Assembly (NCBI GenBank): GCA_051867895.1
Contig: JBJDZH010000011.1
Coordinates: forward strand, 82,540-146,539
DNA from: Eubacteriales bacterium
GTDB lineage: Bacteria; Bacillota; Clostridia; Oscillospirales; CAG-272
Length of the DNA: 64,000 bases
Direction of reading: 5' to 3'
Shown here: positions 17,105 to 31,843 of the stretch, one piece after another
Numbering within the stretch: position 1 is the first letter of the stretch
Layout: the number at the start of each line of letters is the position of its first letter
Made by a program: the position numbers and the translations under genes
The notes under the pieces: generated by a model
What the model saw: only the letters and a program-made list of their open reading frames with translations
Database searches by the model: none
Told to the model about the DNA's origin: nothing

Positions 17105-17107
17105 GAA

Positions 17108-18604: not shown

Positions 18605-18623
18605 ATCCTGGAGCGGGGCATCC

Positions 18624-19097: not shown

Positions 19098-19099
19098 AA

Positions 19100-20401
19100 T
19101 TGTCAGAAAAAAGCACAAAAAAGAAGCTGTCGCGCGGGAAGATCGTTCTGATCGCGGCGGCGGTGCTGTTATTGCTTATACTGATCCCCGCGGCGGTCAT
19201 CGTGGGGCGGCTTTGGGTAAATTACAGCACGCTTTCCTATGAAAAACACCGTCCGGTCGAACGGACGGACGAATACATCATGCCAGACTATCCCGACGTT
19301 ATCCCCGGCGCGCCGGACGCGCCGCCGGAGGACAGCTCTCTGCCCGCCGGAACGGAACCGCCGGAGACTGTGCCGCCCGCGGAGACAACGGGAGCGGCGG
19401 AAACGACGGAGCCGCCGGAAACAACGGAACCTCCGGAGACGACGGCGCCCCCGCCGCCGGCAACCTCCGGAACAGAGGCGCCCGCGACGAATCCGCCCGA
19501 AACGCTTCCCCCTGTAATCAACGATCCGCCGGGAACCTCGGCCCCCTATACGCCGCCGTCCAATCCCGACGCGTCCTTTGCCAATTCTGACAGAATCGTC
19601 AGCGTGTACGGAAAAACGCCAATCTACAAAGTCACGCAGAAGGACAAGAATGTCAAGAATATTCTCGTGCTGGGCACTGATTCACGCGACGTTACGACGG
19701 ACCGGGGACGGAGCGACACCATGATTATCGTTTCGTACAATTCCGAGAAGGGAACGGTGAAACTGACATCGCTTTTGCGCGACTCCCTGGTACCGATCGA
19801 GGGCTATGACTGGAACCGCATCAATACCGCCTACTTCTTTGGCGGCGTCGGACTCGCGGTGAATACGGTCAATCAGATCTATGATCTGGATATTCAGGAT
19901 TTTGTCGTGATCGACCTTAACGGAGCGGCGGATTTCATCGACTATATCGGCGGAGTCGACGTCACCCTCACCGCGGCGGAGGCGGAGCTGTACAGCGCTT
20001 ATACCGGCAGGAAGATTTCTGCCGGACTGAATCATATGGACTCCACGCTCGCCATGCTGCATATGCGGAACCGCAGCTCTGACAACGATTTCGGACGGAC
20101 AAGACGGCAGCGGGACGTGATTTCGGCAATTGCCGCGAAACTCATCAGTGAAAAATCCGTGTCGGAAATATACGATATCACCAATTACGCGTTTTCGCTC
20201 ATCAAAACGAATATTTCCGCCACATCGCTGGTCTCCCTTGCCGCCTCGGTTCTCTCCCATGGCGCATCCCTGAAGATTGAGACTGCCAACGTGCCGTTCA
20301 GCGACGCCTATCAGTTTGCCTGGTACAAGGGTATGTCCATCATTTCCTTTGATTTGCAGGACGCCGCGAAACGGCTCGGCGAGTTCCTGTACGATTCCTG
20401 A
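19100..20401 (+). CDS. LytR-CpsA-Psr (LCP) family glycopolymer ligase
   Basis: TTG start 7 nt after AAGGAG. TM anchor, a Pro/Thr/Glu-rich linker (TEPPETVPPAETTGAAETTEPPETTEPPETT), and the LCP core ILVLGTDSRDVTTDRGRSDTMIIVSY...LLRDSLVPI. Confidence 0.85.
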   Translation: MSEKSTKKKLSRGKIVLIAAAVLLLLILIPAAVIVGRLWVNYSTLSYEKHRPVERTDEYIMPDYPDVIPGAPDAPPEDSSLPAGTEPPETVPPAETTGAAETTEPPETTEPPETTAPPPPATSGTEAPATNPPETLPPVINDPPGTSAPYTPPSNPDASFANSDRIVSVYGKTPIYKVTQKDKNVKNILVLGTDSRDVTTDRGRSDTMIIVSYNSEKGTVKLTSLLRDSLVPIEGYDWNRINTAYFFGGVGLAVNTVNQIYDLDIQDFVVIDLNGAADFIDYIGGVDVTLTAAEAELYSAYTGRKISAGLNHMDSTLAMLHMRNRSSDNDFGRTRRQRDVISAIAAKLISEKSVSEIYDITNYAFSLIKTNISATSLVSLAASVLSHGASLKIETANVPFSDAYQFAWYKGMSIISFDLQDAAKRLGEFLYDS

Positions 20402-20407
20402 AGTCAT

Positions 20408-20450
20408 CCCCCCGCGTCCGGCTTTGCCGGACGCGGGGGGGTGTGTTTTT
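20408..20450 (+). terminator. strong intrinsic terminator ending the capsule operon
   Basis: CCCCCCGCGTCCGG / CCGGACGCGGGGGG stem with a 4-5 nt loop, followed by GTGTGTTTTT. Confidence 0.8.
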
Positions 20451-20571: not shown

Positions 20572-20600
20572 TTGCAAATACAAACGTTCTGTGCTACAAT
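20572..20600 (+). promoter_or_regulatory. sigma-A-type promoter of the RRE/peptide/rSAM operon
   Basis: TTGCAA (20572-20577), a 17-nt spacer, then TGcTACAAT (hexamer 20595-20600), in an AT-rich island. Confidence 0.5.
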
Positions 20601-20791
20601 AATCTATGAATATATATACTGCCGTATTGTTTCCCTCACCGGGACAGACGCTGCGCGATGGGAAGCGAAAGCGGCGGGAATCTCCGTCCGGCAGAAAGGT
20701 GGAATTTGGCTTGATGAATCAGCAGCTTCGTGCGGGACCGCAGTCTGCAGCACTCTGGCCTCCTGATTCCCTTTTTCAGGAAACCAGAGCG

Positions 20792-21139
20792 ATGACGGAC
20801 GGTGAGTTATACCAATATCTCAAGGACAGCCCCGCGCCTGCGGCACGGCTCCGTTACCGGATCCGGGACGGATACTGCGTGCGTGATTTCTGCGGCGAAA
20901 CCCTTGTGATCCCCGTCAGCGGAGAAGCGATCGCCGGACAGCAGATGGCGATCCTGAGCCCGGGCGGCAGGCTTCTCTGGGACAGGCTGCAAAGCGCGCA
21001 GACCTTTGCGGATCTGCTGCTTGCCCTGCTCAGCGAATACGAGGTCGAGCGGGAAACCGCCGCGGCGGATATCCATGAATTTCTCTCAGAGCTGGATTCT
21101 CATAAATATCTGATGGTTGAAAAGGAGCCGGAAAGATGA
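20792..21139 (+). CDS. PqqD-family protein (RiPP recognition element-type peptide chaperone)
   Basis: RYRIRDGYCVRDFCGETLVIPVSGEAIAGQQMAILSPGGRLLWDRLQSAQTFADLLLALLSEYEVERETAAADIHEFLSELDSHKYL fits the PF05402 pattern. The start is uncertain; in-frame ATGs also occur at 20714 and 20606. Confidence 0.8.
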   Translation: MTDGELYQYLKDSPAPAARLRYRIRDGYCVRDFCGETLVIPVSGEAIAGQQMAILSPGGRLLWDRLQSAQTFADLLLALLSEYEVERETAAADIHEFLSELDSHKYLMVEKEPER

Positions 21140-24100
21140 AGAAACGTTTCTGTGCAATACTGATGACTGCCGCCACACTGTTTGCGGCGCTGCCCACGGT
21201 CAGTTTACCGGCGCGCGCGGCAACAGTCTACAGTGACAGCGACGCAGAATATGTATCTCTGCCTGTCACCATCCGCGACTACGCGGGCGACGGCATGCTG
21301 TTTGAGTGGAACGAGCTGGGTAATACCGGCGATCAGACAATCGGCGGCTCCACCGTGCTTCCCATTGTGAAGCATACCACGCAGGCAGGCGGCGGCGCGT
21401 ATACTGCCACGGCGGGCGACGGCTATGTCCGCTATACGTCTACCTCCACTGGTATATACATCACCTATACGATAAGCGGCGGCTATACCCGTACCCAGAT
21501 GCGCTATGCTGTGGTGAAATACCGCACTAATGGTGGTTATACTTCTCAGCCTACCATCGGTCATCGGTGGAACAATGGCGGAAACAATAATTATGTGAAT
21601 TTCCCGACAGACGGATACAATCAGCCTGAGTTCAAGACTGTCATCAAAGATTTGGGAGAGGGCAGCGATACAGTATCGCATGTGACCATCTATCCCCGTC
21701 TCGCTTCCGGCAACTATATCGATATCGCGGAGATCGCGTTTTTCTCCAGTTTGTCGGATGCGAATAGCTATGCCAGCGGTACGGTAACAGGCGGCGATGT
21801 CTACCATCACGGCAGCACAAGGGGCTACGGTCTGCTGCAGACTGTTGCTGCGGATCATTTCAACGATTTGACGGACAGTGCCGCTATCTCCGGCACGACG
21901 CTTACGGAGAACGGCACATGGAACTCTGCGGAGGTAACGACCAGTACCACCACGCTGAACAGCGGTGCGCTCCAGACACTGTACGGCTGCTATGTCCGTA
22001 CCGATCTGGTTGAGCCGAAGCTGGGCGCCAACGGCAAGCCTGTCTATACCGAGGCGGCTGTCGCCTATCTGGCAAACTATATGGCGAAGACGCTTCCTGT
22101 GGCATGGCAGAATGTCGACGGCACCTACAATATGTGGTACGTCATGGGTACCAAGCTCTTTAACGACAGCAATGTTTTTGTGGGCACGGGCGGCACCGCC
22201 ACCAGAGACCTGGCGACCGTTCTGCGCAGCATCATCACCGGCGGTCTCGGCAGCTACGCGGAGACAAAGGCAAAAACGCTCAGTCAGGTCACGGACTGCA
22301 CCACTTATTTTGACGCGGCATATTTCCTGCTGCACAACACCTTTACGGACAATCCCGGCTACGGCGTGACGGTGCCCGAATACCGGACCGTCAATCTGGT
22401 CAAGAAAACGGTGGACGGAAAGTCCTATTACGTTTACAATTCCGCCTTTGACGGCACGGTATATGACACGACAAACGGCGTGATCTACAATTCGCAGACG
22501 GATACCATCACGACCCGGGAAGGTACTACATACGTTCGCGGCAATTTGCAGCCGGAGAGCCGCTTTGACCCGATCGGCGCACTCGGCAGCGGTGCGTACT
22601 ACGGCTTGAACGGCAACCCATACGTAAGTATTGTCGGGAATGCCAGTGTGCTCAACTATTACAACAAAACCAACTACAACCTGACCCTCGAAGGACACGC
22701 CCAGTTTATCTTCTACGAGGATGACGATCTGTACTTCAACTTCACCGGCGACGACGACGTGTACCTGTACATCAACGGTGTGCGCGTGCTGGACATGGGC
22801 GGCGCGCACGCGATCTCGAAGTGCGGCATCTCTCTGAATAGTGTCAAGGATCTCTGCGGTCTGAAGGACGGCGAGGTGTACGACTTCGACTTCTTCTACA
22901 TGGAGCGGCACGGTACCGCTGCGAACTTCGGTTTGGAGACCAATATCAAGATCGTGGATCCGTCCATGCTGACCAAAAAGAACGCGTACCAGAAGGGAAC
23001 GAACGTCGGAAACTTCGGATACGTCGATCCGAGCATTCCTGTGTCCTATGGATTTGCACTGACCAATAACGGCGAAGCGAAAATTGAGGAGCTGACCTTC
23101 CGGGATAACGACATCGGTGTATATCTGACGAAGGATGCCATCGCTCTGAACAGCGAGACCAACATCCTGCAGCTTTCCGCCCGGGTGACCGATAAGGACG
23201 GCAAGGAGAAAGTCTCCTATGCCGCCGGGAATCTGACGGAGGATATCCTGAAGCAGCTGCTGCTCGCGGGACTGGAGATCGGAGATACCATTGAGATCGC
23301 CGGCTTCCAGTATACGATCCCCACTGCCGCGTGGACGGATGAAAAATTCACGAACACGGTTTACACAACGGCGATCTCCTATGGCAACAACGCTTCGCAC
23401 CGGACGCTGAACGGACTTGCCTCCTGCACCGTGCAGCAGCAGGAGTATTCTTTTGAGCATCTCCACTTCTATGAATGGGTGGGTAAAGGCGTGACTGTCA
23501 CAAAGGATGAGCTGATCGCCGCCGTAATACAGGCGGGCGTTGCGAATCCGGGCACGACTGTCCAGCTCTGCTCTCCCTCCGGCAATACGAGCGATGCGGG
23601 TATCAATCCCCGCGCCGCGTATACGGAAGGCGGCGGTATCAAGTACACCGGCGTTGTGACCGGCGCGGACACGTATTACTATAAGGTAGGCATTTACGGT
23701 CCCGTCGCCGTCACGATATACAGCTACGACGTGGCGGACAATGTGTACGTTCTGGACTACGGTCTGCCGGTGGAGCTGAACGGTCAGGATTTCGGCCTGC
23801 TTGTCAATGATACGCTGACGCTCATCGACAATCCCTATGCGACTACTGCGAGTACGGTGGGCATTACCAGCTCAACCACCAACTACGGCATGTTCAGCTG
23901 GAATGCGCCGTCGCTGAAATATACCCTGACCAACTTCATGAATGGTGAGGATAACGCACTTGTCACCGTGCAGGTGCTTGAGAACGGCGCGACAGAGCTG
24001 ACAAAGGCCACCGGTGTGCTGATGGAGGAGACGGTGCGTGTCATTCCCGCCAATGTGGTGTACTATGAGGACGATTTCGCCGGCATTACCTATATCGGCA

Positions 24101-25692
24101 CGGATAAGAACGGCTGGGTGCAGTACCGCTCCGAGGATTCATACGGTAATGAACAGAGCGCGGATCAGGACAGCTCCTACGGCTCCGATCCGAACTATGC
24201 AGCGGACAAGAAAACGACCTACACGACGCTGACGCTGGATACCAGCAACCTGAACACGTTCCAGACGGACGCCATCAACTACCTGAACAGTTATCTCGGA
24301 CTGATCGAAGGCGACGCCTCCAACGGAACGCTCAGCGGACTGGTCGTTAAGGAAACGGAGGATGTCCTGAGCTTTGAGTTCTGTGGTACCGGCTTTGAGA
24401 TTGTCAGCCGCACGACTCAGTACGATTACGCTGTCGTCTCCGTCAAGGTGGAGCGCAGGAACGCGGATGGCACCTATACCGTTGTCCGGCAGTTCCCGGT
24501 CATCACCGAAAGCAAGGGCGGCGATCTGTATCAGGTGCCGATCATCTCTGTCACCGGTCTGGAGCGCTCCGCGTACCGGGTCACGCTGAGTGCCTTCGGC
24601 AGCACGGCTACCAAAACGCGCGTACTCTATATCGACGGTGTACGCATCTATGAGCCGATCCAGGGACTGGACGAGGTGCGCTATTACAACGCGGACGAAC
24701 AGAATGCGGTATTCCTTGAGGTCAAGTCCCTGATCCAGAATGGTCAGGCGATTTATGCGGATATCTCTGATACGGACGGCGGCACAATTCTCGGGTCCGG
24801 CACGACGGTAATCGAAACGACGGACGATAGCGGATTGGTGTTGAGGAAAGCAACGAGCGTCGATGAGTACATGACATTCGGACCGAACAACGAACTGTAT
24901 CTGAACGGTTTTTTCACTACGCCAGTTCTTGCACTGTACCTTTATCCCGACAGCACGGTACCGGAGAGCGCCCGCACCGTTGAGATCGGCGCGCATCGCA
25001 AGGCAGATTCGTTATTCTACGACAATAGTCCTGCCACTCTTGTGTATGGCAGCACGGCAGCGGACATTCTGGAAATGACGCACGTGTATACCGTTTCCAG
25101 CGGGACGGAGCAGTATTATGAACTGAACGTAGAGAATCTTGTCCAGGATGAAAAAAACCGCTACCTGCTTCTGGTCGGCACGAACGAAAAAGAGGCCTCG
25201 AGTTTGAAATCACTGGCGCTGACGAACCTGAAGGTCAGCGGCTACAGCGTCAGACTGGTCGAGCCGGAGACAGCGGATGCCGCCGCGGCGAACGACCTCG
25301 CTGCAAGTCCGGCTGTGGCTGCCGTCATGTCCCTGCGCAGTCTCAGAGCCGCCTCGATGCCGAAGCCCGAGGAGCCTGTCGTTCCGGTGAATGAAAATCT
25401 GACGGTCACCTCTGCGGCTTTGATGGCGGACAACGTTGTTTCCGGCAAGTTTGCGATAGCTGCGGTTAAGGCAGGCGCGGACGCCGTGAAGCTGACGGTA
25501 GTGGACGCCGCCGGCAATGAAGTGGAGCTCGCCCGCAGCGCCTCAACGACAAAGGATGGTGTAGTCACCTTCCAGGCGATGTGGAAGGTCACCGGCAGCC
25601 GCGGTGATGTGCTTCGCTTTACTGTTCGCGTCTATGATGCAGACGGACTCGCCTCCGTCAATACGATGGACGTCACCGTCACGATCAAATAA
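21136..25692 (+). CDS. 1518-aa secreted protein with fibro-slime/PA14-like domain
   Basis: Signal peptide MKKRFCAILMTAATLFAALPTVSLPARA. The fibro-slime motif is FNFTGDDDVYLYINGVRVLDMGGAHA...DFDFFYMERHGTAANFGLETNI (about 22678-22950). AAAGGAG RBS, and the ATG overlaps the PqqD stop (ATGA). Confidence 0.75.
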   Translation: MKKRFCAILMTAATLFAALPTVSLPARAATVYSDSDAEYVSLPVTIRDYAGDGMLFEWNELGNTGDQTIGGSTVLPIVKHTTQAGGGAYTATAGDGYVRYTSTSTGIYITYTISGGYTRTQMRYAVVKYRTNGGYTSQPTIGHRWNNGGNNNYVNFPTDGYNQPEFKTVIKDLGEGSDTVSHVTIYPRLASGNYIDIAEIAFFSSLSDANSYASGTVTGGDVYHHGSTRGYGLLQTVAADHFNDLTDSAAISGTTLTENGTWNSAEVTTSTTTLNSGALQTLYGCYVRTDLVEPKLGANGKPVYTEAAVAYLANYMAKTLPVAWQNVDGTYNMWYVMGTKLFNDSNVFVGTGGTATRDLATVLRSIITGGLGSYAETKAKTLSQVTDCTTYFDAAYFLLHNTFTDNPGYGVTVPEYRTVNLVKKTVDGKSYYVYNSAFDGTVYDTTNGVIYNSQTDTITTREGTTYVRGNLQPESRFDPIGALGSGAYYGLNGNPYVSIVGNASVLNYYNKTNYNLTLEGHAQFIFYEDDDLYFNFTGDDDVYLYINGVRVLDMGGAHAISKCGISLNSVKDLCGLKDGEVYDFDFFYMERHGTAANFGLETNIKIVDPSMLTKKNAYQKGTNVGNFGYVDPSIPVSYGFALTNNGEAKIEELTFRDNDIGVYLTKDAIALNSETNILQLSARVTDKDGKEKVSYAAGNLTEDILKQLLLAGLEIGDTIEIAGFQYTIPTAAWTDEKFTNTVYTTAISYGNNASHRTLNGLASCTVQQQEYSFEHLHFYEWVGKGVTVTKDELIAAVIQAGVANPGTTVQLCSPSGNTSDAGINPRAAYTEGGGIKYTGVVTGADTYYYKVGIYGPVAVTIYSYDVADNVYVLDYGLPVELNGQDFGLLVNDTLTLIDNPYATTASTVGITSSTTNYGMFSWNAPSLKYTLTNFMNGEDNALVTVQVLENGATELTKATGVLMEETVRVIPANVVYYEDDFAGITYIGTDKNGWVQYRSEDSYGNEQSADQDSSYGSDPNYAADKKTTYTTLTLDTSNLNTFQTDAINYLNSYLGLIEGDASNGTLSGLVVKETEDVLSFEFCGTGFEIVSRTTQYDYAVVSVKVERRNADGTYTVVRQFPVITESKGGDLYQVPIISVTGLERSAYRVTLSAFGSTATKTRVLYIDGVRIYEPIQGLDEVRYYNADEQNAVFLEVKSLIQNGQAIYADISDTDGGTILGSGTTVIETTDDSGLVLRKATSVDEYMTFGPNNELYLNGFFTTPVLALYLYPDSTVPESARTVEIGAHRKADSLFYDNSPATLVYGSTAADILEMTHVYTVSSGTEQYYELNVENLVQDEKNRYLLLVGTNEKEASSLKSLALTNLKVSGYSVRLVEPETADAAAANDLAASPAVAAVMSLRSLRAASMPKPEEPVVPVNENLTVTSAALMADNVVSGKFAIAAVKAGADAVKLTVVDAAGNEVELARSASTTKDGVVTFQAMWKVTGSRGDVLRFTVRVYDADGLASVNTMDVTVTIK

Positions 25693-25704
25693 GGAGCGCG
25701 GAAT

Positions 25705-25923
25705 ATGAAAAAGCCATACAGCAAACCGCAGATTGCAGTGGAGACCGTCCGGCTCGACCATCCGGTCGCAGGCGGATGCATCGCGGATTTTGAGGATGTG
25801 AACGCTCTTGTGGGGATGGGCTACTTCGGGGACGATATGGGTTGTAAAACGGAGTGGATCGACAACGGCAACCACGATACCATCTGCTATCACAGCAATG
25901 TTCAGGTTGCGTTTCTCTCCTGA
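25705..25923 (+). CDS. 72-aa Cys-containing small protein; candidate RiPP precursor
   Basis: AAGGAG lies 7 nt upstream. The sequence is MKKPYSKPQIAVETVRLDHPVAGGCIADFEDVNALVGMGYFGDDMGCKTEWIDNGNHDTICYHSNVQVAFLS. It sits 9 nt from the next gene and carries YxxPxI, GG, three Cys and a C-terminal Ser. Confidence 0.5.
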   Translation: MKKPYSKPQIAVETVRLDHPVAGGCIADFEDVNALVGMGYFGDDMGCKTEWIDNGNHDTICYHSNVQVAFLS

Positions 25924-25931
25924 CCGGAACC

Positions 25932-26759
25932 ATGGCGGTGTTTGAAGCGGAGCTGCAGATCGCCGGGATGACCTTCCGCATAGACGCCCCCTTCCGCATC
26001 ACTCTGCCGGAGTCCTTCCGTCCGTTTCAGCGGACGGAAGGAGCGTCCGGCGAAATTGACTGTCAGATCACGGTTCATGTCGGCAGCATGTCGGATTTTG
26101 CCGTCAGAAATACGGATATCGTGCAGAAGTACCACTGGAGAGACGCGGAATATGTCGTGCGGGTGGAGTCCCCAGGACGCCCGGACGAGATCCGCCTCTT
26201 TATTCCCGAGGCGTACGCGGAGAGCTTTGCGCGCAGCGCGAACTGGCTTCTCTACCTCGCGCCGGAGCGTGCGCTTCTGCGCGGAGGACGGATCGTTCTG
26301 CACGCGTCGGCGGTCGTCCGGAACGGGCAGGCGGTCGTTTTCACTGCGCCGTCCGGCGGGGGCAAATCCACGCAGGCGCAGCTGTGGCAGAAGTACCTTC
26401 ATGCCGAGCCGATGAACGGGGACAAGATCGTTCTCTATGCGGCGGGGGACGCCCTGATCGCCAGCGGAAGCCCGATTGCGGGCAGCTCCGGGATCTATCG
26501 GGATCTGCAGGCGCCGGTGCGGACCATCGTCCGCCTGGAGAAAGCGCCGTTCAACCGGCTCACGCCGCTGTCCGCGCGCGAGTCACTTCTGCTTCTCTAC
26601 GGAGAGGCGGTAAAGAGCCGCTGGGACGAACGCTTCAATCAGAGACTGCTCTCCGCTCTGGAACCCATGACCGCTCTGACCGAGTATTACAGATTTTCCT
26701 GCCTTCCGGAGCCGAGCGCGGCTGACTGCCTGCTTCGCCGGATAGAGAACCCTTCATAA
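25932..26759 (+). CDS. HPr-kinase-like P-loop protein (HprK C-terminal-domain homologue)
   Basis: LHASAVVRNGQAVVFTAPSGGGKSTQAQLW, with the P-loop at 26349-26372. No clear RBS, so the start is uncertain. Confidence 0.65.
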   Translation: MAVFEAELQIAGMTFRIDAPFRITLPESFRPFQRTEGASGEIDCQITVHVGSMSDFAVRNTDIVQKYHWRDAEYVVRVESPGRPDEIRLFIPEAYAESFARSANWLLYLAPERALLRGGRIVLHASAVVRNGQAVVFTAPSGGGKSTQAQLWQKYLHAEPMNGDKIVLYAAGDALIASGSPIAGSSGIYRDLQAPVRTIVRLEKAPFNRLTPLSARESLLLLYGEAVKSRWDERFNQRLLSALEPMTALTEYYRFSCLPEPSAADCLLRRIENPS

Positions 26760-26794
26760 ACCGGAATTCAAAATTGAATTGAGGACAATTGACC

Positions 26795-29281
26795 ATGAGA
26801 AGGAATCAAAGATTACGCCGGCTTCTGACCCTTGTTCTGGCAGTGCTCTTTGCCGCGGCGCCGCTGCCGGTGTGCGCGCAAAGCAGCGCCGGCTGGGCGT
26901 TTGCCTCCGACACGGAGATCTATTGGGTGCAAACGGACGATTCACAGTACACGAACGAAGATCTGCGTGCGCAGGTGCAGCTCTTTGCACAGGAGCTGCA
27001 GGCAAAGAACCTGACGGCGTCCGTGCCGGGCATTACCTATGGCGTGCAGTCGGCGGCGGGCGATCATGATATCGTCCTGATTCTGGATTCCTCTCTCGGG
27101 ATCGCCGCCGAGGGCTTCCGCCTGGAAATCAGCGGTGGGCAGCTTCTGGTGAACGCCTCCGACGCGGATGGGCTGTTTTACGGCTGCCGCTTTGTCGAGC
27201 AGACCCTTCTGACCGGACGGGATCTGAGCCAGGTGTGCGGCGTTGTGAACAGCCCGGATTATCCGGAACGGGCGTTTTTCCTGGACTGCGGACGCAAGTA
27301 TTATTCTCCCGAATGGATCAAGAATATGATCCGGGAGATGTCCTGGTCGAATATGAACGCCATCTACCTCCATTTCTCGGAGGAAATGGGCTTCCGCCTG
27401 GAGAGCAAGACCTATCCATGGCTGGCAGGCGGCGACAACACGCTCTGCGTCGGTGGGGCGAGCGCAGCGGACGCGGATGAGAACAACAAGTACATCACAC
27501 AGGAAGAAATGCGTGAGATCGCAGAGGTCGCGCGGCTGTACCATGTGGAGATCATTCCCTCGCTGGACAGCCCAGGGCATATGAACTATGCCGTCAAAAA
27601 ATACAATGCGGTAAACGGCTCCGATATCGGGAACTATTTCCACTATAACGGGAAAACTGCCATCGTTCAGGGATCCGGTACGGAGACGGCGCAGAAGAGC
27701 TATTCCCGCGGCATCGACATTTCCAATCCGGAGGCGCGCACGTTCGCGCAGAACCTGTACCGGGAATATGCCGCGTTCTTTGCTGAGCTTGGCTGTACCA
27801 AGTTTGACATCGGCGGCGATGAGCTTCTCGGTTGGGGTTCTGCGGTTGTCTCCACCTCATCCGTGTCCAGGTGGCAGCAGCTGGATCATTGGAAAACCTA
27901 CGCGCAGCAGAGAAGCGGAAGCAGCAAAGCCGTCGCCTACGACGCGTTCATGTATTATATGAACGATATCTACGATATCGTCAAAGGCTATGGCTACACC
28001 TCCATCCGCATGTGGAACGACGACGCGCTCCGTACTGCGGATACCGGCTGGAATCAGGTCGTCACCCTGAACGAGGGGTTTGAGATCCAGTACTGGACGC
28101 CAACCGCTAACAACAGCAAAAACAACATCAATTCCTATCTGAACGCCGGATACGACGTCTACAACTTTCTGAATTCCTATAACTACTATGTACTCGGAAA
28201 GGTACACGATGGAACCGGCGATTATCCGGGCTGCACGCCGGAGCGCATCTACATGAACTGGGCGCCGAATATCTTCACTCCGTATGGCGGGAGCGCCGCC
28301 GATACGTCGATCACCGATACGCGTGTCAAAGGCAGTGCTTTCTGCGTCTGGTGCGATCAGCCCAAGACGGAGGGCGAAGTTGTCGTACGGGCAACCGTTC
28401 TGCCGCGCCTGCGCGCCAACGGCGCCAAGGCGTGGGACGCCGATCTGCAAAGTTCACTTTCCTACAGCGACTGGTATGCCCGTCAGGAGAAACTCGGCGA
28501 CGCGCCCGCCAATCTGCCCGCAGCGCCGGAAATTCAGGTGTACATATCACCTGACCTGACGGCATTGAAGAAGGCTGTCGCCGAATATGAGAGCATGGAC
28601 GGCGCCCTGTATACGGAGGAGAGCTTCGCGCTGTATACGGAAGCAGCCGAAACGGGAAAAACGGTTCTGAACAGCAAGAGACCGACGCAGGAACAGGCGG
28701 ATGCCGCGACCTCCGCACTTGAGGCAGCAAAGGCAGCGCTGCGTCTCTCTACCAGCATCGATTATGCGGCGCTGGACGCAGAGCTTGCCGCCTTTGACGC
28801 TGTGAGTGCCGCAGATTATACTGCGGAGACATACACCGCCTACAAGGTGATGGCGGAGAGCGCGCGCCTGCTGCGCAGCCGCACGGATGCGACTCAGGAA
28901 GAGATCGATGCGGTGGCGGACCGTCTCGCTTATCTGAAAAAGCAGCTTCGTGCTGTCGACGCAATCACCGGTGAGAACTGCATTCTGTCATTTGCCTCGA
29001 TGTCTTCCTATGCGATGCGTGGCAAGGTCTTTATCTTTGCCGTCACTGTCCTGACGGATGCCGAAATCGATCACTTCGAGATATATGACGAGGCAGGAAG
29101 CCGTGTTGATATCTGTTACGCAATCTGGAATAAAGTGAATCCGAGAACGCCCGAAAAGCGGAGTGTTCAGATTCGCGTCCGCGCGGAGGTTTTCGGGCAG
29201 CATACCTACACCGTCTACGCGATTCGCGCGGATGGAACGCGTTCTCCCGACATGAAGTCACTGACAGTACTGGTCAAGTAA
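26795..29281 (+). CDS. secreted GH20 beta-N-acetylhexosaminidase with C-terminal helical (FIVAR-like) repeats and an Ig-like end
   Basis: Signal peptide MRRNQRLRRLLTLVLAVLFAAAPLPVCAQS. ERAFFLDCGRKYY, IIPSLDSPGHMNY, and the catalytic pair in FDIGGDELLGW (D-E codons 27818-27823). Confidence 0.85.
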   Translation: MRRNQRLRRLLTLVLAVLFAAAPLPVCAQSSAGWAFASDTEIYWVQTDDSQYTNEDLRAQVQLFAQELQAKNLTASVPGITYGVQSAAGDHDIVLILDSSLGIAAEGFRLEISGGQLLVNASDADGLFYGCRFVEQTLLTGRDLSQVCGVVNSPDYPERAFFLDCGRKYYSPEWIKNMIREMSWSNMNAIYLHFSEEMGFRLESKTYPWLAGGDNTLCVGGASAADADENNKYITQEEMREIAEVARLYHVEIIPSLDSPGHMNYAVKKYNAVNGSDIGNYFHYNGKTAIVQGSGTETAQKSYSRGIDISNPEARTFAQNLYREYAAFFAELGCTKFDIGGDELLGWGSAVVSTSSVSRWQQLDHWKTYAQQRSGSSKAVAYDAFMYYMNDIYDIVKGYGYTSIRMWNDDALRTADTGWNQVVTLNEGFEIQYWTPTANNSKNNINSYLNAGYDVYNFLNSYNYYVLGKVHDGTGDYPGCTPERIYMNWAPNIFTPYGGSAADTSITDTRVKGSAFCVWCDQPKTEGEVVVRATVLPRLRANGAKAWDADLQSSLSYSDWYARQEKLGDAPANLPAAPEIQVYISPDLTALKKAVAEYESMDGALYTEESFALYTEAAETGKTVLNSKRPTQEQADAATSALEAAKAALRLSTSIDYAALDAELAAFDAVSAADYTAETYTAYKVMAESARLLRSRTDATQEEIDAVADRLAYLKKQLRAVDAITGENCILSFASMSSYAMRGKVFIFAVTVLTDAEIDHFEIYDEAGSRVDICYAIWNKVNPRTPEKRSVQIRVRAEVFGQHTYTVYAIRADGTRSPDMKSLTVLVK

Positions 29282-29296
29282 ACGGGTAAATCGAAA

Positions 29297-29330
29297 GCGG
29301 GCTTCCATCAGCCGATGGAGGTCCGCTTTT
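29297..29330 (+). terminator. intrinsic terminator/attenuator-like hairpin directly upstream of the rSAM RBS
   Basis: A 13-bp stem, GCGGGCTTCCATC / GATGGAGGTCCGC (two G-U pairs), with a 4-nt loop and then TTTT. GGAGG lies at 29333-29337 and the ATG at 29344. Confidence 0.55.
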
Positions 29331-29343
29331 CCGGAGGAGCAGT

Positions 29344-30432
29344 ATGGAACTGAAAAGCTACATATTTCACAAAGGTGCAGCCCGTCATATTCCGGTCAGC
29401 GGGACGTTTGAGCTGACGCCCCGGTGTAACCTGCAATGCGAAATGTGCTATATCCGCATGAGCTCCGCTGAACAGAAGGAGGCGGGACGTGAGCGGACGG
29501 CGGACGAATGGATCGCGCTGGGCAGAGAAGCGGTGGATGCGGGCATGGTCTATCTGCTGCTGACAGGGGGAGAGCCGCTGCTCCGTGCAGATTTTCCGCA
29601 GATCTACCGTGAACTGGCGAAGATGGGGGTCGTGCTTTCCCTGAATACGAACGGAACACTCCTGACGGACGGGATTCTCGAATGCCTCTGCGAGCATCCG
29701 CCGGAAAAGGTGAACGTCACCCTGTACGGTGCGTCCGCCGCAACGTATGAAAAAGTCTGCGGAAGCGCAGCCGCCTTTTCACGCGCATCGGACGCGGTCC
29801 GCAGAATGAAACAGGCGGGAATTCCCGTTTTCATCAATACCACCTTCACGAAGAACAACGCCTCTGATATGGAGGATATCGTTTCGTTTGCCCGGGAAGT
29901 CAAGGCGCCCATCCGCATGACGAGCTATGTTTTTCCTCCAGTCCGCTGCGCCCGGGAGGCAAAAACGGACTGCCTGCTCCCGCCTGATGCATACGGCGCT
30001 TTGGCGGCGCGGTTCGATCTTCTTACCTTAGATGCGGAGCAGAAAAAGCGGCGCAGACAGACGATTGACCATATTATGGGAAATATGGAGCCCCCCCCCG
30101 CAGATGAGAAAAGCAGGGCATCGTCCTGCATGGCGGGGAGAGGGGCATTCTGGATCACGTGGGACGGAAAGCTGCTGCCCTGCGGTATGCTGCCTGCCTC
30201 AGCGGTGGAGCTGGGGAACAGTACTTTCCGTGAAGCATGGGAGCGCCTGCCGCACGTCATGAACCGGATACAGTTACCCGTCGAATGCAGCACCTGCCGC
30301 GCGAGGCGGATATGTTCGGTGTGTGTTGCGGTGACGCAGAACGCAGAGGGCGATCCCTCCGTGCCTCCGAGGGATCTGTGCAGGTACGCACAGTCCTATT
30401 TGTCCGGCTTCCTGAAAAGCGGGGAGCGGTAG
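29344..30432 (+). CDS. radical SAM enzyme with C-terminal SPASM domain
   Basis: CNLQCEMC (29425-29448), GGEPLL, SSCMAGRGAFWITWDGKLLPCG and CSTCRARRICSVC (30286-30324). Confidence 0.9.
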   Translation: MELKSYIFHKGAARHIPVSGTFELTPRCNLQCEMCYIRMSSAEQKEAGRERTADEWIALGREAVDAGMVYLLLTGGEPLLRADFPQIYRELAKMGVVLSLNTNGTLLTDGILECLCEHPPEKVNVTLYGASAATYEKVCGSAAAFSRASDAVRRMKQAGIPVFINTTFTKNNASDMEDIVSFAREVKAPIRMTSYVFPPVRCAREAKTDCLLPPDAYGALAARFDLLTLDAEQKKRRRQTIDHIMGNMEPPPADEKSRASSCMAGRGAFWITWDGKLLPCGMLPASAVELGNSTFREAWERLPHVMNRIQLPVECSTCRARRICSVCVAVTQNAEGDPSVPPRDLCRYAQSYLSGFLKSGER

Positions 30433-30486
30433 GAAGCGAGTCCATCCGGAAGCCGGGAAGTGAACGGAGTCCATATATCCTGCGGT

Positions 30487-31698
30487 TTATGGTATGATGT
30501 CGTACAGCTTCAAAAGCTCAATGCGCTCTTTGCCCAGCCGGAGAGAGTCTGCGGCACTGTTGTTCTGGTGGGCGCACATTTCGGATGCGTAGTGGAAAAT
30601 GCGCTGCGCCCAGGCAACCGGCAGCAGAACCGGATGCTTTTTCAGATACACATACTTTTTCTCCATGTACGCACGCCCGGGGAAAACGGAACGAAGAACG
30701 CCGCGGCGTTTCCCTGTGCGGCTGGAATTCACAGCGTTCAGCGTGACAGTCGAGGAATGGAGACGTGCCTCGTCGGAGTGACCGTATATTCCGCCGGCAA
30801 ATACATCGTGCAAAAGCGGCTCAATGGAAACGTGCGGCTTTTCCCATGGCGCCGGGAGCGAAATGTTCATGCCGAGCGCAGTGCGGTCGATTTCAAATAC
30901 AGCGGCTGCAAAGGTTGCGGCGTGTACGCTATCACACTGGCTGTGCAGCAGAGTCCAGTCAATCCGGTCGTAATAGGCATGCGCCCAGAGACCGATGTCA
31001 TAGAACTGCCGAAGACCTACACCGGACAGGACGAAATGCTTGTAGGCGTGCAGCAGAAGATAGAGCAGATGCTCGTGAGGCTGCATGGTCAGATAACCGC
31101 TGATCTCCTCACAGCCGGCGGGGAGGTGCGCAAAGAAACGGTTGATCTCGTTATGCGCGTCTTCGGAGAAATCAAACAGACGCCGGTGCAGTTCGATATA
31201 AAGTGGACTGCCTTCCTTTTTATAGGAGATTTCATCTGCATCCTCCAGCTGCTGCGGAGGGCAGGCAGTATGGAGTCCGTTTTCGAGAAGGACGGCGTGG
31301 CACATGCTGAATTCGGCGTCGGGGATGAAGAGGTCGTCGTCTGCGCTGATACGGTGATCCGGAAGCGGATAGAGACGGCTGCAAAGCTGCCCCTTCACCA
31401 CAATGGGGTGGAGCCCGGCGGCACGCAGTTTCCGGTACAGCGCCGAAAATTCCGCCGCACGGACAGCCTGCGTCAGCACCTGTCCGATCACCTGTCGTTT
31501 TACCGCGGCGAAAAGGGCTGCGTTAGCCTGGGCGGCGTCTGTTTCTCGTACAGTCTCAAAGACGATCGGCAAGAGCCTTTGCTGATCGGCAAGCGCAAAG
31601 ACGGACGGATAATCCGCCCCGGCGGGAGACGCGGACGTGCCCTGCACTGCGGCACGCATGATCGCCAAAAGATCGCTTTCAGTCTGTGTGAGACTCAT
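30487..31698 (-). CDS. PF14907-type (NTP_transf_5) putative nucleotidyltransferase
   Basis: LHPIVVKGQLCSRLYPLPDHRISADDDLFIPDAEF...YIELHRRLF matches the family's lKG..l...Yp....R...DiDllv ... veLH pattern. Confidence 0.7.
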   Translation of the reverse strand: MSLTQTESDLLAIMRAAVQGTSASPAGADYPSVFALADQQRLLPIVFETVRETDAAQANAALFAAVKRQVIGQVLTQAVRAAEFSALYRKLRAAGLHPIVVKGQLCSRLYPLPDHRISADDDLFIPDAEFSMCHAVLLENGLHTACPPQQLEDADEISYKKEGSPLYIELHRRLFDFSEDAHNEINRFFAHLPAGCEEISGYLTMQPHEHLLYLLLHAYKHFVLSGVGLRQFYDIGLWAHAYYDRIDWTLLHSQCDSVHAATFAAAVFEIDRTALGMNISLPAPWEKPHVSIEPLLHDVFAGGIYGHSDEARLHSSTVTLNAVNSSRTGKRRGVLRSVFPGRAYMEKKYVYLKKHPVLLPVAWAQRIFHYASEMCAHQNNSAADSLRLGKERIELLKLYDIIP

Positions 31699-31814
31699 GG
31701 TCGGTTGCAGTCACCTTTTCTTTGTATTTTCGGGCGGAGAAGAGATTGAAAAGCACTTCCCCTTTACGCCCGGAGGTTTGCCGCCGAGCGGAGGAGACAC
31801 AAAGCATCTACCTC

Positions 31815-31843
31815 ATTATACCACTCGCTGCCGCAAACTACAA
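31815..31843 (-). promoter_or_regulatory. sigma-A-type promoter for the nucleotidyltransferase gene
   Basis: Minus strand reads TTGTAG (31843-31838), a 17-nt spacer, then TGgTATAAT (hexamer 31820-31815). Confidence 0.5.

What the first reader, a model, noticed from the sequence alone, without database searches (positions are those of the whole stretch)
20572..31843. Orphan RiPP-like module at the end of a capsule locus, with no known class-defining core enzyme
Seen in the sequence:
- One promoter-to-end unit (20572-30432) encodes six products. These are a PqqD-type RRE, an ATGA-coupled 1518-aa secreted fibro-slime/PA14 protein, a 72-aa peptide with a strong RBS, an HprK-like P-loop protein (APSGGGKST), a secreted GH20, and a radical SAM enzyme (CNLQCEMC) with a full SPASM Cys set.
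- A convergent PF14907-like nucleotidyltransferase gene has its own promoter.
- An S24/S26 peptidase lies just upstream, at 18624.

Established knowledge: PqqD-like RREs present leader peptides to RiPP enzymes. rSAM/SPASM enzymes install thioether or C-C crosslinks. HprK-like kinases and PF14907 enzymes are tailoring enzymes in Firmicute lasso-peptide clusters.

Inference: this is a peptide-maturation system, with rSAM crosslinking plus phospho/nucleotidyl tailoring. It fits neither the lasso class (no Asn-synthetase-like cyclase, no transglutaminase-like B2) nor the classic sactipeptide or ranthipeptide layouts. It is also genetically tied to cell-surface glycan genes. From memory, PqqD plus HprK-related kinase neighbourhoods are catalogued in TIGRFAMs without an assigned function; that recollection needs checking.
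Basis: partly seen in the sequence, partly recalled or inferred. Interest (0 to 1): 0.88.

Follow-up and report, generated by a model that had tools for sequence, protein, structure and literature searches.

The report
Peptide-maturation operon tied to surface glycans
A six-gene operon conserved in many gut Clostridia interleaves a small cysteine-containing peptide and three enzymes that probably cross-link and phosphorylate it with two very large secreted sugar-binding and sugar-cutting proteins. I found no described peptide-natural-product class with this combination, and its function is untested.

Summary
Between a strong terminator (20405-20443) and the radical SAM stop (30432) lie six genes:
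- a PqqD-type RRE
- a 1518-aa secreted PA14/fibro-slime protein
- a 72-aa peptide
- an HprK/PEPCK-fold P-loop protein (Pfam ScmC family)
- a secreted GH20
- a radical SAM/SPASM enzyme

This order recurs in 17 further complete loci and about ten partial ones from gut Clostridia, with unrelated flanks.

The peptide belongs to a large unnamed family: 309 clusters at 90% identity and 210 at 50%. It is under purifying selection (dN/dS about 0.18). Its frame is rigid: Tyr5, Pro8, first Cys about 20 residues after the Tyr, 3-5 Cys, a late C-Y-H motif and a near-universal C-terminal Ser.

By analogy with the lasso kinases PadeK/PsmK, I infer that the P-loop protein phosphorylates that Ser. I infer that the radical SAM enzyme cross-links the Cys residues. 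The PF14907 transferase, S24 peptidase and an ABC exporter are accessory parts, seen only in some relatives.

Distant relatives sit directly beside or inside capsule loci.

The chemistry and the role of the giant protein and the glycosidase are untested. I rate it a new variant of a known kind, interest about 0.7.

The parts
20405..20443 (+). Intrinsic terminator closing the upstream capsule/LCP operon. It marks the 5' boundary of the cassette.
   Evidence: 18-bp stem with 15 G-C pairs, followed by a T-run. Also readable in the sequence.
20572..20600 (+). Promoter-like site: TTGCAA-17-TACAAT with TG before the -10 hexamer.
   Evidence: Consensus scan, 9 of 12 matches. Consensus match only; not evidence of function.
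20792..21139 (+). PqqD-family protein (115 aa), a discrete RiPP recognition element (RRE). The ORF is open from 20606.
   Evidence: PF05402, E 1.2e-10. Weak hits to lasso PqqD chaperone models. Gene call of 115 aa. Orthologues of 96-142 aa stand at the head of every complete cassette.
21136..25692 (+). 1518-aa secreted PA14/fibro-slime protein. Its start is coupled to the PqqD stop (ATGA).
   Evidence: PA14. TIGR02148, 73 bits. Signal peptide and no anchor motif in the translation. No PDB sequence relative. Orthologues at 43-64% identity always lie between PqqD and the peptide gene.
25705..25923 (+). 72-aa precursor peptide. It has a 24-residue conserved N-terminal region, invariant Cys25, Cys47 and Cys61, a DTICYHSNVQVAF motif and an invariant C-terminal Ser72.
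   Evidence: AAGGAG RBS. Family of 309 clusters at 90% identity and 210 at 50%. Invariant columns. All 121 listed members end in Ser, as do 142 of 149 short 50%-identity representatives. dN/dS 0.18. No Pfam or NCBIfam model.
25932..26759 (+). 275-aa P-loop protein of the ScmC family with an HprK/PEPCK fold. It is the presumed kinase acting on the precursor.
   Evidence: Precomputed PF27840 ScmC hits. Weak hits to TIGR04249 and TIGR04352. AF2 pLDDT 92.5. Foldseek returns only PEPCK and HprK/P among the top 49 hits. Invariant H124, S141-G-x-G-K-S-T147 and N162-G-D164.
26795..29281 (+). Secreted GH20 glycosidase with a FIVAR domain.
   Evidence: PF00728, E 1e-39; GH20b; FIVAR. Signal peptide and GGDE (D341/E342). 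It lies between ScmC and rSAM in all complete close-family loci. A GH20 also accompanies the distant variant L019.
29344..30432 (+). Radical SAM/SPASM enzyme (362 aa) with no fused RRE.
   Evidence: PF04055, E 5e-25. Invariant C28/C32/C35 plus a seven-Cys SPASM set. Nearest solved relatives are SkfB and PqqE. No NCBIfam cut-off is reached.
30487..31698 (-). PF14907 nucleotidyltransferase, convergent with the cassette. It is an accessory component.
   Evidence: PF14907, E 2e-37. ADDD motif. Homologues lie next to related modules in L002, L042 and L054 only. No promoter-like site was found upstream of it.
18624..19097 (+). S24/S26-like peptidase (157 aa), a candidate leader peptidase. It is an accessory component encoded in the preceding operon.
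   Evidence: Weak hits to Peptidase_S24 and sigpep_I_arch, both below cut-off. GSSM motif. Homologues directly adjoin PqqD or ScmC in L002 and L053-L056.
11447..20401 (+). Capsule-locus context: CapD (11447-13810), CpsB (13812-14540), an Ig-like surface protein (14672-15556), two Wzz/BY-kinase fusions (15611-17104 and 17108-18604), and LCP (19100-20401).
   Evidence: Pfam and NCBIfam. The same gene types flank distant relatives of the module.

Best explanation
The region is a self-contained operon that makes and matures a ribosomal peptide, and couples it to two large secreted glycan-active proteins.

Shown:
- The gene set, its fixed order and its wide conservation.
- The rigid sequence frame of the precursor.
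- The folds and cofactor motifs of the enzymes.

Inferred mechanism:
1. The discrete PqqD/RRE binds the conserved 24-residue N-terminal region of the 72-aa precursor.
2. The RRE presents the precursor to the radical SAM/SPASM enzyme, which cross-links the three invariant Cys. Thioethers to invariant Asp or other residues, as in sacti- or ranthipeptides and QhpC, are the most likely chemistry.
3. The HprK/PEPCK-fold ScmC protein uses ATP to phosphorylate the invariant C-terminal Ser, as PadeK and PsmK do on lasso precursors.
4. Where present, the PF14907 enzyme decorates that phosphate (hexose in pseudomycoidin), the S24-like peptidase removes the leader, and a dedicated ABC exporter exports the product.
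5. The mature peptide then acts outside the cell together with the co-translated PA14/fibro-slime protein and the GH20. It may serve as a partner, small subunit or ligand, in a cell-surface glycan (capsule) context.
For: Unit and conservation:
- Terminator and promoter bracket the unit.
- The six-gene order is identical in L002, L005, L007, L012-L016, L020-L023, L025, L027, L028, L031 and L033, and in about 10 partial contigs. Flanks are unrelated.

Interleaving:
- The giant gene lies between the RRE and the precursor, and GH20 lies between ScmC and rSAM, so the secreted proteins are inside the maturation operon and not merely beside it.
- Distant variants keep the logic. L017 and L058 have fibro-slime protein-precursor-ScmC-rSAM, and in L017 a secreted GH2 follows. 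L019 has GH20-precursor-PqqD-ScmC-rSAM.

Precursor frame:
- Tyr4/5 and Pro7/8.
- First Cys 19-21 residues after the Tyr in 121 of 134 representatives.
- 3-5 Cys.
- C-terminal Ser in 121 of 121 close members, 142 of 149 short representatives at 50% identity, and every one of 16 diverse precursor sequences found next to ScmC, rSAM or a giant-protein gene.
- Purifying selection.

Enzymes:
- ScmC fold is HprK/PEPCK, with an invariant Walker A, His and Asp.
- Precedent: the HprK-family PsmK phosphorylates the C-terminal Ser of the precursor, and the uncharacterised NTP transferase PsmN is needed for adding hexose onto that phosphate (PMC6993621).
- The rSAM has the full SPASM Cys set and is nearest to the peptide maturases SkfB and PqqE.
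- Precursor and rSAM genes are paired in L052.
- The exporter next to the PF14907 gene is orthologous between L002 and L042 (42% identity over the full length).
Against: - No biochemical or expression data exist. All loci but one come from metagenome assemblies.
- The core cassette has no protease and no transporter, so leader removal and export are unexplained in most genomes, and the window itself has no dedicated exporter.
- The ScmC protein does not reach the Pfam Hpr_kinase_C threshold or any NCBIfam cut-off, and Foldseek TM-scores are modest (0.26-0.5). Kinase activity on Ser is therefore an analogy.
- The best NCBIfam score of the rSAM is to heme b synthase AhbD, a non-peptide enzyme, although far below its cut-off.
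- The type of cross-link cannot be read from sequence.
- Nothing shows a physical or functional link between the peptide and the giant protein or the GH20 beyond gene order.
Confidence: 0.6

Rival explanations
1. QhpC-like reading (a refinement of function rather than a true rival). The peptide is not a free natural product. It is a cross-linked small subunit, matured in the cytoplasm, stripped of its leader, exported, and assembled outside the cell with the Sec-exported PA14/fibro-slime protein and/or the GH20. This mirrors how the gamma subunit of quinohemoprotein amine dehydrogenase assembles with its alpha and beta subunits.
For: QHNDH precedent (PMC7876137):
- Three Cys-to-Asp/Glu thioethers made by the rSAM QhpD.
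- Protease and ABC exporter.
- Assembly with two large exported subunits encoded in the same operon.
- The gamma subunit is mostly coil with two short helices.

Parallels here:
- A conserved N-terminal region of about 24 residues, three invariant Cys, and invariant Asp18/Asp31 with near-invariant Asp58.
- The genes for two large secreted proteins are interleaved with the maturation genes.
- Almost the whole peptide is conserved, which is unlike typical antimicrobial cores.
- The AF2 model is low-confidence with two short helices.
Against: - No QhpA, QhpB, QhpE or QhpG homologues are present.
- Distant relatives have precursors with ScmC, PqqD and rSAM but no giant protein or glycosidase (L042, L050, L052).
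- L036 lacks the GH20.
- There is no evidence of a complex.
Confidence: 0.25
2. Glycan-linked peptide. The phosphorylated C-terminal Ser is the attachment point for a sugar or a capsular glycan through a phosphodiester. This would make the peptide a cap, primer or anchor of a surface polysaccharide. The GH20 and the PA14 protein would act on or bind that glycan.
For: - PsmN-dependent hexose is added onto the phospho-Ser of pseudomycoidin.
- The window cassette follows CapD-CpsB-BY-kinases-S24-LCP.
- In L042 the ScmC-PqqD-precursor-rSAM-NTase-ABC module sits between CapD and CpsB-BY-kinase-BY-kinase.
- CapD directly precedes ScmC in L042, L044-L048, L051 and L052.
- L002 has CpsB next to ABC-NTase-S24-PqqD.
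- L054 carries GT1 glycosyltransferases next to the module.
Against: - Most close-family cassettes have housekeeping flanks, with no capsule genes or PF14907 gene within 5-10 kb.
- Several of the CapD-adjacent loci are near-identical variants of one lineage, so they are not independent observations.
- Capsule loci are common insertion sites.
- There is no glycosyltransferase in the core cassette.
Confidence: 0.15
3. Ordinary stand-alone RiPP (bacteriocin or signal). The giant protein and the GH20 would be unrelated passengers.
For: - The enzyme set (RRE, rSAM/SPASM, kinase, and accessory peptidase and exporter) suffices for a RiPP.
- Distant relatives lack the large proteins.
Against: - The large genes sit between the maturation genes, and they keep their positions across peptide identities of 43-64% and across several families of Clostridia.
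- Two different glycosidase families (GH20 and GH2) and diverged fibro-slime proteins accompany diverged modules.
- The core peptide sequence is strongly conserved and not hypervariable.
Confidence: 0.12
4. The radical SAM enzyme matures the giant protein or the GH20 (as a sulfatase-maturase does), or modifies a glycan or cofactor. The small ORF would be irrelevant.
For: - The best NCBIfam scores are to AhbD/NirJ-type enzymes.
- The enzyme lacks a fused RRE.
Against: - All those scores are a quarter or less of the cut-offs.
- No sulfatase maturase appears among PDB hits.
- A discrete PqqD is always present.
- rSAM genes are paired with precursor genes where no large protein exists (L042, L050, L052).
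- The small ORF is under purifying selection.
Confidence: 0.04

Closest known systems
Lasso-peptide tailoring pair PadeK/PsmK (HprK-family kinase) and PsmN (uncharacterised nucleotidyltransferase), in paeninodin and pseudomycoidin
   Same: - An HprK-fold P-loop enzyme and, in the window, a PF14907 transferase.
- A discrete PqqD.
- A precursor whose last residue is Ser, the residue phosphorylated in those lasso peptides. Hexose is then added to the phosphate (PMC6993621).
   Different: - No lasso cyclase and no B2 protease.
- A radical SAM/SPASM enzyme is present instead.
- The precursor is 72-144 aa with 3-5 Cys.
- The kinase-like protein belongs to the ScmC family, not to a curated lasso-kinase family.
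- The transferase is absent from most cassettes.
SynChlorMet (SCM) cassette of TIGRFAMs/NCBIfam (ScmC, PqqD-family ScmD, rSAM/SPASM ScmE and ScmF), and the HprK-rel-A/B systems
   Same: - The same trio of protein types: a ScmC/HprK-related P-loop protein, PqqD and rSAM/SPASM.
- The P-loop protein carries precomputed Pfam PF27840 (ScmC) hits.
- Both are catalogued without an assigned function (from my own knowledge of the TIGRFAMs descriptions; the library here only shows the names).
   Different: - Scores are far below the equivalog cut-offs: ScmC 24 against 125 bits, ScmE 87.5 against 400, HprK_rel_A 24 against 200.
- There is one rSAM, not two.
- The precursor family has no model.
- Giant PA14 protein and glycosidase genes are interleaved.
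- The host range is gut Clostridia.
Sactipeptide and ranthipeptide systems (for example SkfB, PapB, AlbA)
   Same: - rSAM with a full SPASM cluster set.
- An RRE.
- A Cys-containing precursor encoded next to the enzyme.
- SkfB is the nearest solved sequence relative.
- PapB aligns over its full length.
   Different: - The RRE is a separate protein.
- No curated maturase family is matched.
- The leader is unrelated to PapA's (LKQINVIAGVKEPIRA).
- The precursor is conserved along almost its whole length.
- There is an added kinase-like enzyme and an obligatory C-terminal Ser.
- Large secreted proteins are encoded in the operon.
Quinohemoprotein amine dehydrogenase biogenesis (qhp operon: QhpC gamma subunit, rSAM QhpD, protease QhpE, exporter QhpF)
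   Same: - A leader-bearing small polypeptide with three Cys.
- An rSAM in one operon with the genes of large exported partner proteins.
- Accessory protease and ABC exporter (PMC7876137).
   Different: - No homology to the qhp structural or accessory proteins.
- Gram-positive hosts.
- The partners are a PA14/fibro-slime protein and a glycosidase, not a cytochrome and a propeller.
- A kinase-like enzyme is present.
- No Trp-quinone logic is evident.

Membership tests
Radical SAM/SPASM peptide maturation systems (sacti/ranthipeptide type) | CX3CX2C radical SAM cluster motif | tested here: met
   C28/C32/C35 are invariant in six diverged orthologues. PF04055, E 5e-25.
Radical SAM/SPASM peptide maturation systems (sacti/ranthipeptide type) | Seven-Cys SPASM extension for two auxiliary Fe-S clusters | tested here: met
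   Invariant C262, C280, C315, C318, C324, C327 and C346. The Pfam SPASM hit itself is below cut-off (17.6 against 21.5 bits).
Radical SAM/SPASM peptide maturation systems (sacti/ranthipeptide type) | RiPP recognition element, either fused or as a discrete PqqD-like protein | tested here: met
   A discrete PqqD, PF05402 at 42 bits against a 23.4 cut-off. It is present in every complete cassette.
Radical SAM/SPASM peptide maturation systems (sacti/ranthipeptide type) | Adjacent Cys-containing precursor with a conserved leader | tested here: met
   72-aa ORF with three invariant Cys and a conserved N-terminal 24 residues.
Radical SAM/SPASM peptide maturation systems (sacti/ranthipeptide type) | Membership of a curated maturase family (PapB, SkfB, AlbA, SCIFF and others) | tested here: not met
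   PapB 66.7 against 340 bits; SkfB 64.9 against 300. No equivalog cut-off is reached.
Radical SAM/SPASM peptide maturation systems (sacti/ranthipeptide type) | Thioether (S-C alpha, beta or gamma) cross-links in the product | not testable with these tools
   Needs mass spectrometry or NMR of the modified peptide.
Lasso peptides | Asn-synthetase-like macrolactam synthetase (C protein) | tested here: not met
   No such domain on any ORF of 18495-33934 scanned with Pfam and NCBIfam.
Lasso peptides | Transglutaminase-like leader peptidase (B2) | tested here: not met
   Absent from the same scans. Only an S24-like peptidase is nearby.
SynChlorMet cassette (TIGR04249-04251) | ScmC equivalog | tested here: not met
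   TIGR04249 scores 24.1 bits against a cut-off of 125. At the looser Pfam level the protein and most homologues carry precomputed PF27840 ScmC hits, marked weak for several. The local Pfam copy does not return PF27840.
SynChlorMet cassette (TIGR04249-04251) | Two rSAM/SPASM proteins, ScmE and ScmF | tested here: not met
   Only one rSAM gene is present. ScmE scores 87.5 and ScmF 74.5 bits against a cut-off of 400.
HprK/P-PEPCK-fold P-loop phosphotransferases | Fold of the nucleotide-binding domain | tested here: met
   AF2 pLDDT 92.5 and pTM 0.89. Foldseek ranks 1-49 are all PEPCK or HprK/P, with E down to 6e-8.
HprK/P-PEPCK-fold P-loop phosphotransferases | Walker A motif and conserved His/Asp around it | tested here: met
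   Invariant S141-G-x-G-K-S-T147, H124 and D164 in 29 homologues. Equating these with the HprK catalytic residues rests on my recollection of the HprK sequence, not on a test.
HprK/P-PEPCK-fold P-loop phosphotransferases | Sequence membership of Pfam Hpr_kinase_C or of NCBIfam HprK-related kinase A/B | tested here: not met
   No Hpr_kinase_C hit for the window protein; E 0.038 for the L017 homologue. HprK_rel_A scores 23.8 against 200 bits. In a profile search of the PDB, HprK appears only at E 0.12.
HprK/P-PEPCK-fold P-loop phosphotransferases | Phosphorylation of a Ser hydroxyl of the peptide substrate | not testable with these tools
   Inferred from the near-universal C-terminal Ser and the PsmK/PadeK precedent.
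QHNDH (qhp) biogenesis system | Homologues of QhpA, QhpB, QhpE and QhpG | tested here: not met
   No cytochrome, propeller, subtilisin or flavin monooxygenase domains in the cassette. The resemblance is only architectural.

The most novel reading that the evidence does not exclude
Gut Clostridia use a RiPP-type pathway (RRE + rSAM/SPASM + HprK-fold kinase) not to make a free antibiotic but to build a cross-linked small protein that ends in phospho-Ser. That small protein would be a dedicated component of an extracellular glycan-handling machine. It could be a covalently stabilised small subunit or ligand of the 1500-aa PA14/fibro-slime protein and its glycosidase. Alternatively it could be a peptide joined through its C-terminal phosphate to a capsular glycan. 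Either would be a Gram-positive counterpart of the QhpC logic, and a new link between RiPP chemistry and capsule or host-glycan biology.
Probability: 0.25. Interest if true: 0.85.

Novelty: new variant of a known kind. Interest (0 to 1): 0.7.

Why it matters
If the inference holds, three things follow.

- It defines a large RiPP-like family in abundant gut Clostridia that I found unnamed in every database and library searched. The family has at least 210 clusters at 50% identity.
- It offers a simple, testable rule: the C-terminal Ser pairs with the HprK-fold enzyme, and the fixed Cys frame pairs with the rSAM.
- It would extend HprK-type peptide phosphorylation beyond lasso peptides.

The constant interleaving with a giant PA14 protein and a glycosidase, together with the recurrent capsule-locus setting, points to a role for modified peptides in surface-glycan or host-glycan biology rather than in antagonism. 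That would be new, and it can be tested directly by co-expression and mass spectrometry.

Tried and rejected
1. PapA-like leader. I recalled that the MKKPYSKP leader resembled the freyrasin PapA leader. A mass check failed, and PMC12715619 gives the PapA leader as LKQINVIAGVKEPIRA. I dropped the idea.

2. Sequence-only PDB searches with the P-loop protein, alone or as a profile. They returned only Walker-A hits to ABC transporters, with HprK at E 0.12. Only the fold comparison was informative.

3. Literature searches. The terms were SynChlorMet; KKPYSKP; 'HPr kinase + PqqD + radical SAM + nucleotidyltransferase'; PF14907; and 'RiPP + radical SAM + C-terminal serine + kinase'. None found a description of this system. 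The RRE-Finder paper does not mention kinases or glycosidases.

4. PF27840. The local Pfam copy does not return it, so I could not read its description.

5. AF2 of the peptide alone. Confidence is low (pLDDT 62). It neither shows nor excludes a fold.

6. Signal peptide or lipobox reading of 'IAAGC'. Rejected: the preceding 24 residues are charged or polar, with no hydrophobic core (sequence).

7. Sulfatase-maturase-like action on the large proteins. Rejected.

8. The window's other ABC protein (7047-9023, minus strand). It matches the module-associated exporter of L002 only in the ATPase domain, so it is not the dedicated exporter. The ABC-F at 31994-33934 has no membrane domain.

9. Butyricicoccus porcorum BB10. 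This is the only cultured strain found with the peptide, but its cassette is decayed.

10. P0248. This 3806-aa hit to the peptide profile is a repeat adhesin with compositional similarity only.

Full report
**1. What is in the window**

The window is a contig of a gut Clostridia MAG. The P-loop protein of the cassette is identical to NCBI 'MAG: hypothetical protein ACI3XP_02845 [Eubacteriales bacterium]' on a 163.5-kb contig. The rSAM is found on a Logan assembly of SRR30616840. An S10-Clostridia leader lies at 39492. The closest named relatives are Faecousia sp..

Upstream of the finding lies a capsule-type locus:
- CapD, 11447-13810
- CpsB, 13812-14540
- an Ig-like surface protein, 14672-15556
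- two Wzz/BY-kinase fusions, 15611-17104 and 17108-18604
- a 157-aa S24-like peptidase, 18624-19097
- an LCP transferase, 19100-20401

An 18-bp-stem terminator (20405-20443) closes that unit. A TTGCAA-17-TACAAT site with an upstream TG follows at 20572-20600.

**2. The cassette**

- PqqD: most likely 20792-21139. Its stop overlaps the next start as ATGA.
- A 1518-aa secreted PA14/fibro-slime protein.
- A 72-aa ORF behind an AAGGAG RBS.
- A 275-aa P-loop protein with FTAPSGGGKST, most likely starting at 25932.
- A secreted GH20 with FIVAR and an intact GGDE pair.
- A 362-aa radical SAM enzyme. It has CNLQCEMC and seven further Cys that are invariant among six diverged orthologues, which is the full SPASM complement.

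A PF14907 nucleotidyltransferase is encoded convergently at 30487-31698. The scan found no promoter-like site for it.

**3. The arrangement is not a chance neighbourhood**

Exact look-ups of peptide homologues were combined with a species-level genome scan seeded with the peptide profile and a metagenome scan seeded with the P-loop protein profile. Together they returned 58 loci.

tblastn with the window's proteins shows the order PqqD-giant-peptide-ScmC-GH20-rSAM in every close-family contig long enough to hold it. These are L002, L005, L007, L012-L016, L020-L023, L025, L027, L028, L031 and L033. About ten shorter contigs are consistent with it.

Protein identities to the window are:

| Protein | Identity to window |
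|---|---|
| Peptide | 43-64% |
| P-loop protein | 36-53% |
| Giant protein | 43-64% |
| rSAM | 45-60% |

The hosts span Faecousia, other Oscillospiraceae, Ruminococcus, Lachnospiraceae and Anaerostipes-labelled MAGs. The flanks are unrelated housekeeping genes, so the six genes travel as one unit.

The exceptions are informative:
- L036 lacks the GH20.
- L038 is decayed.
- The only cultured strain found, Butyricicoccus porcorum BB10, is also decayed. An IS3-type integrase sits inside its GH20, its giant gene is truncated, and it has no PqqD or rSAM.

**4. The peptide family**

A first search found 28 clusters. A profile search found 309 clusters at 90% identity, all unnamed and without a Pfam domain. 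An exhaustive HMMER search of 1.84 billion representatives found 210 clusters at 50% identity, 52 of them at E <= 1e-10.

The ORF is under purifying selection. Nonsynonymous divergence is about 0.28 against saturated synonymous sites (0.7-0.9). The median dN/dS is 0.18 on the 72 usable pairs.

The sequence frame is rigid:
- M-K-K-x-Y-x-K-P at the start.
- The first Cys 19-21 residues after the Tyr in 121 of 134 representatives.
- Three to five Cys.
- A C-Y-H motif about a dozen residues from the end.
- A C-terminal Ser.

That Ser ends all 121 listed close members and 142 of 149 short 50%-identity representatives. Of the seven exceptions, two look truncated and three have Ser in the penultimate position. 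Ser also ends every one of 16 diverse precursor sequences found next to ScmC, rSAM or a giant-protein gene, which range from 72 to 138 aa (L017, L018, L019, L042, L050, L052, L057, L058).

No NCBIfam or Pfam model covers any of these precursors. AF2 gives a low-confidence model with two short helices. That fits a peptide substrate or a coil-rich small subunit, but it decides nothing.

**5. The P-loop protein**

By sequence it only grazes TIGR04249 (ScmC) and TIGR04352 (HprK-related kinase A), at about 24 bits against cut-offs of 125 and 200. The collection's precomputed annotation places it and most of its 96 homologous clusters in Pfam PF27840 (ScmC). Sequence searches of the PDB see only the Walker A motif.

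An AF2 model built on 29 homologues is confident (pLDDT 92.5, pTM 0.89). Its 49 best Foldseek matches in the PDB are all ATP- or GTP-dependent PEP carboxykinases or HPr kinase/phosphorylases. The Walker A motif, His124 and Asp164 are invariant. So 'HprK-like' is correct at the fold level, but membership of the curated HprK families is not met.

**6. Why I connect this enzyme with the C-terminal Ser**

In paeninodin and pseudomycoidin, an HprK-family kinase (PadeK, PsmK) phosphorylates the side chain of the C-terminal Ser, and it can act on the precursor. An uncharacterised NTP transferase (PsmN) is then required for adding hexose to that phosphate (PMC6993621).

The family here pairs an HprK-fold protein with a precursor whose only universally fixed feature, apart from the leader and the Cys frame, is a terminal Ser. 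In some genomes a PF14907 enzyme is also present. This is inference by analogy, but it makes a sharp prediction: +80 Da on Ser72, dependent on ScmC.

**7. The radical SAM enzyme**

It has no fused RRE, which fits the separate PqqD. No NCBIfam equivalog is approached:

| Model | Score (bits) | Cut-off (bits) |
|---|---|---|
| AhbD | 127 | 500 |
| PqqE | 95 | 381 |
| ScmE | 87.5 | 400 |
| PapB | 67 | 340 |

The nearest solved sequences are the peptide maturases SkfB and PqqE. Anaerobic sulfatase maturases are absent at E <= 1e-3. In L052, precursor genes and rSAM genes lie in adjacent pairs. These points argue for a peptide substrate. The cross-link type is unknown. Three invariant Cys, invariant Asp18 and Asp31, and near-invariant Asp58 make Cys-to-Asp thioethers an obvious candidate, but that is a guess.

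**8. Accessory parts**

The PF14907 gene and the S24-like peptidase are not in the core cassette, but they recur with related modules.
- In L002 the order is ABC exporter (divergent), then NTase-S24-PqqD and the rest of the cassette.
- In L042 it is ScmC-PqqD-precursor-rSAM-...-NTase-ABC exporter.
- L053-L056 have S24 next to ScmC or PqqD.
- L054 adds NTase, an ABC exporter and GT1 enzymes.

The exporters of L002 and L042 are orthologous (42% identity over the full length). The window has no such exporter; its 7047-9023 ABC protein matches only in the ATPase domain. How most cassettes remove the leader and export the product remains open.

**9. The link to large secreted proteins and to glycans**

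The giant gene lies between the RRE gene and the precursor gene, and the GH20 lies between ScmC and rSAM. The secreted proteins are therefore inside the maturation operon.

Diverged modules keep the theme with different parts:
- L017 and L058 have a diverged fibro-slime protein-precursor-ScmC-rSAM, and L057 at least fibro-slime protein-precursor-ScmC. In L017 a secreted GH2 follows.
- L019 has a GH20 without a signal peptide-precursor-PqqD-ScmC-rSAM.
- L018 has a precursor between two proteins of more than 1000 aa.

Other diverged modules (L042, L050, L052) have no large protein.

Independently, capsule genes recur:
- CapD directly precedes ScmC in L042, L044-L048, L051 and L052. Several of these are variants of one lineage.
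- In L042 the whole module sits between CapD and CpsB-BY-kinase-BY-kinase, the same gene types that precede the cassette in the window.
- L002 has CpsB next to the accessory genes.

Most close-family loci have no capsule genes nearby. The capsule link is therefore suggestive, not established.

**10. Interpretation**

The best-supported reading is a RiPP-type pathway: RRE-guided rSAM/SPASM cross-linking plus HprK-fold phosphorylation of the terminal Ser, with optional further decoration, leader removal and export. Its product would work with the co-encoded PA14/fibro-slime protein and glycosidase.

The closest functional model for the interleaved operon is the qhp system. There a leader-bearing small subunit is triply thioether-cross-linked by an rSAM, trimmed, exported and assembled with two large exported subunits (PMC7876137). 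There is no homology to that system, so this comparison concerns how the cassette may work, not what family it belongs to.

**11. Novelty and limits**

The part types are all known. The combination, the precursor family, the terminal-Ser rule and the coupling to giant secreted proteins were found neither in NCBIfam (release of June 2026) nor in the searched literature. The subscription literature is largely outside that library. I therefore rate it a new variant of a known kind.

Everything mechanistic is inference from sequence, fold and synteny. Almost all loci are metagenome-assembled, and the one cultured carrier has a broken cassette.

Noticed in passing
window 211-4245 (+): A single 1344-aa ORF carries the full carbamoyl-phosphate synthase large chain and, at residues 1222-1337, a diaminopimelate epimerase domain. 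It is either an unusual CarB-DapF fusion or two genes joined by an assembly or frame artefact.
   Followed up: no
window 15611-17104 and 17108-18604 (+): Two tandem paralogous genes, each fusing a Wzz chain-length domain to a ParA/MinD-type BY-kinase ATPase. The same doubled pair follows CpsB in the distant locus L042, at 9421-11963.
   Followed up: partly
L052 5688-15553: An array of five paralogous precursor genes of 127-144 aa. All start MKNYVKPMMESE, and the four read in full end in Ser. They are interspersed with three rSAM genes, lie next to CapD-ScmC-PqqD, and are interrupted by apparently unrelated genes at 8632-11398.
   Followed up: partly
L011 (Butyricicoccus porcorum BB10, NZ_NHOC01000003.1) 9165-15409: This is the only cultured strain found with the peptide gene. 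Its cassette is decayed: the giant gene is reduced to its last ~250 codons, the GH20 is split by an rve-integrase (IS3-like) gene at 11467-12312, and no PqqD or rSAM was detected. The peptide and ScmC genes are intact.
   Followed up: yes
L020 15606-18233: A second GH20+FIVAR paralogue (41% identity to the window's GH20) lies just downstream of a complete cassette, after a ZIP transporter gene.
   Followed up: no
L018 95-7504: A 102-aa precursor-like gene (MKKPYSKP..., ends LFAS) sits between a 1050-aa protein without Pfam hits and a 1296-aa lipase-like protein. No PqqD, ScmC or rSAM lies on the 12.5-kb contig. The maturation genes may lie off the contig.
   Followed up: partly
L005 10321-10503; L007 9718-10608; L008 5792-6355: A DUF4379 (zinc-ribbon) gene overlaps the stop of the rSAM gene in some cassettes. 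The window has the convergent PF14907 gene at that position instead.
   Followed up: no
window 31994-33934 (-), 34004-39318 (-): Downstream of the finding lie an ABC-F ribosomal-protection-type ATPase and then SIR2, TPM-phosphatase, TelA and halogen-hydrolase-like genes. The S10 ribosomal operon, with its Clostridia-type leader at 39492-39585, follows. These are not conserved next to other cassettes.
   Followed up: no
P0248 (representative library): A 3806-aa protein gave 29 partial matches to the peptide profile. It is a ~97-aa-repeat adhesin (…LGYTDADSDLAxSC…), and the similarity looks compositional.
   Followed up: yes
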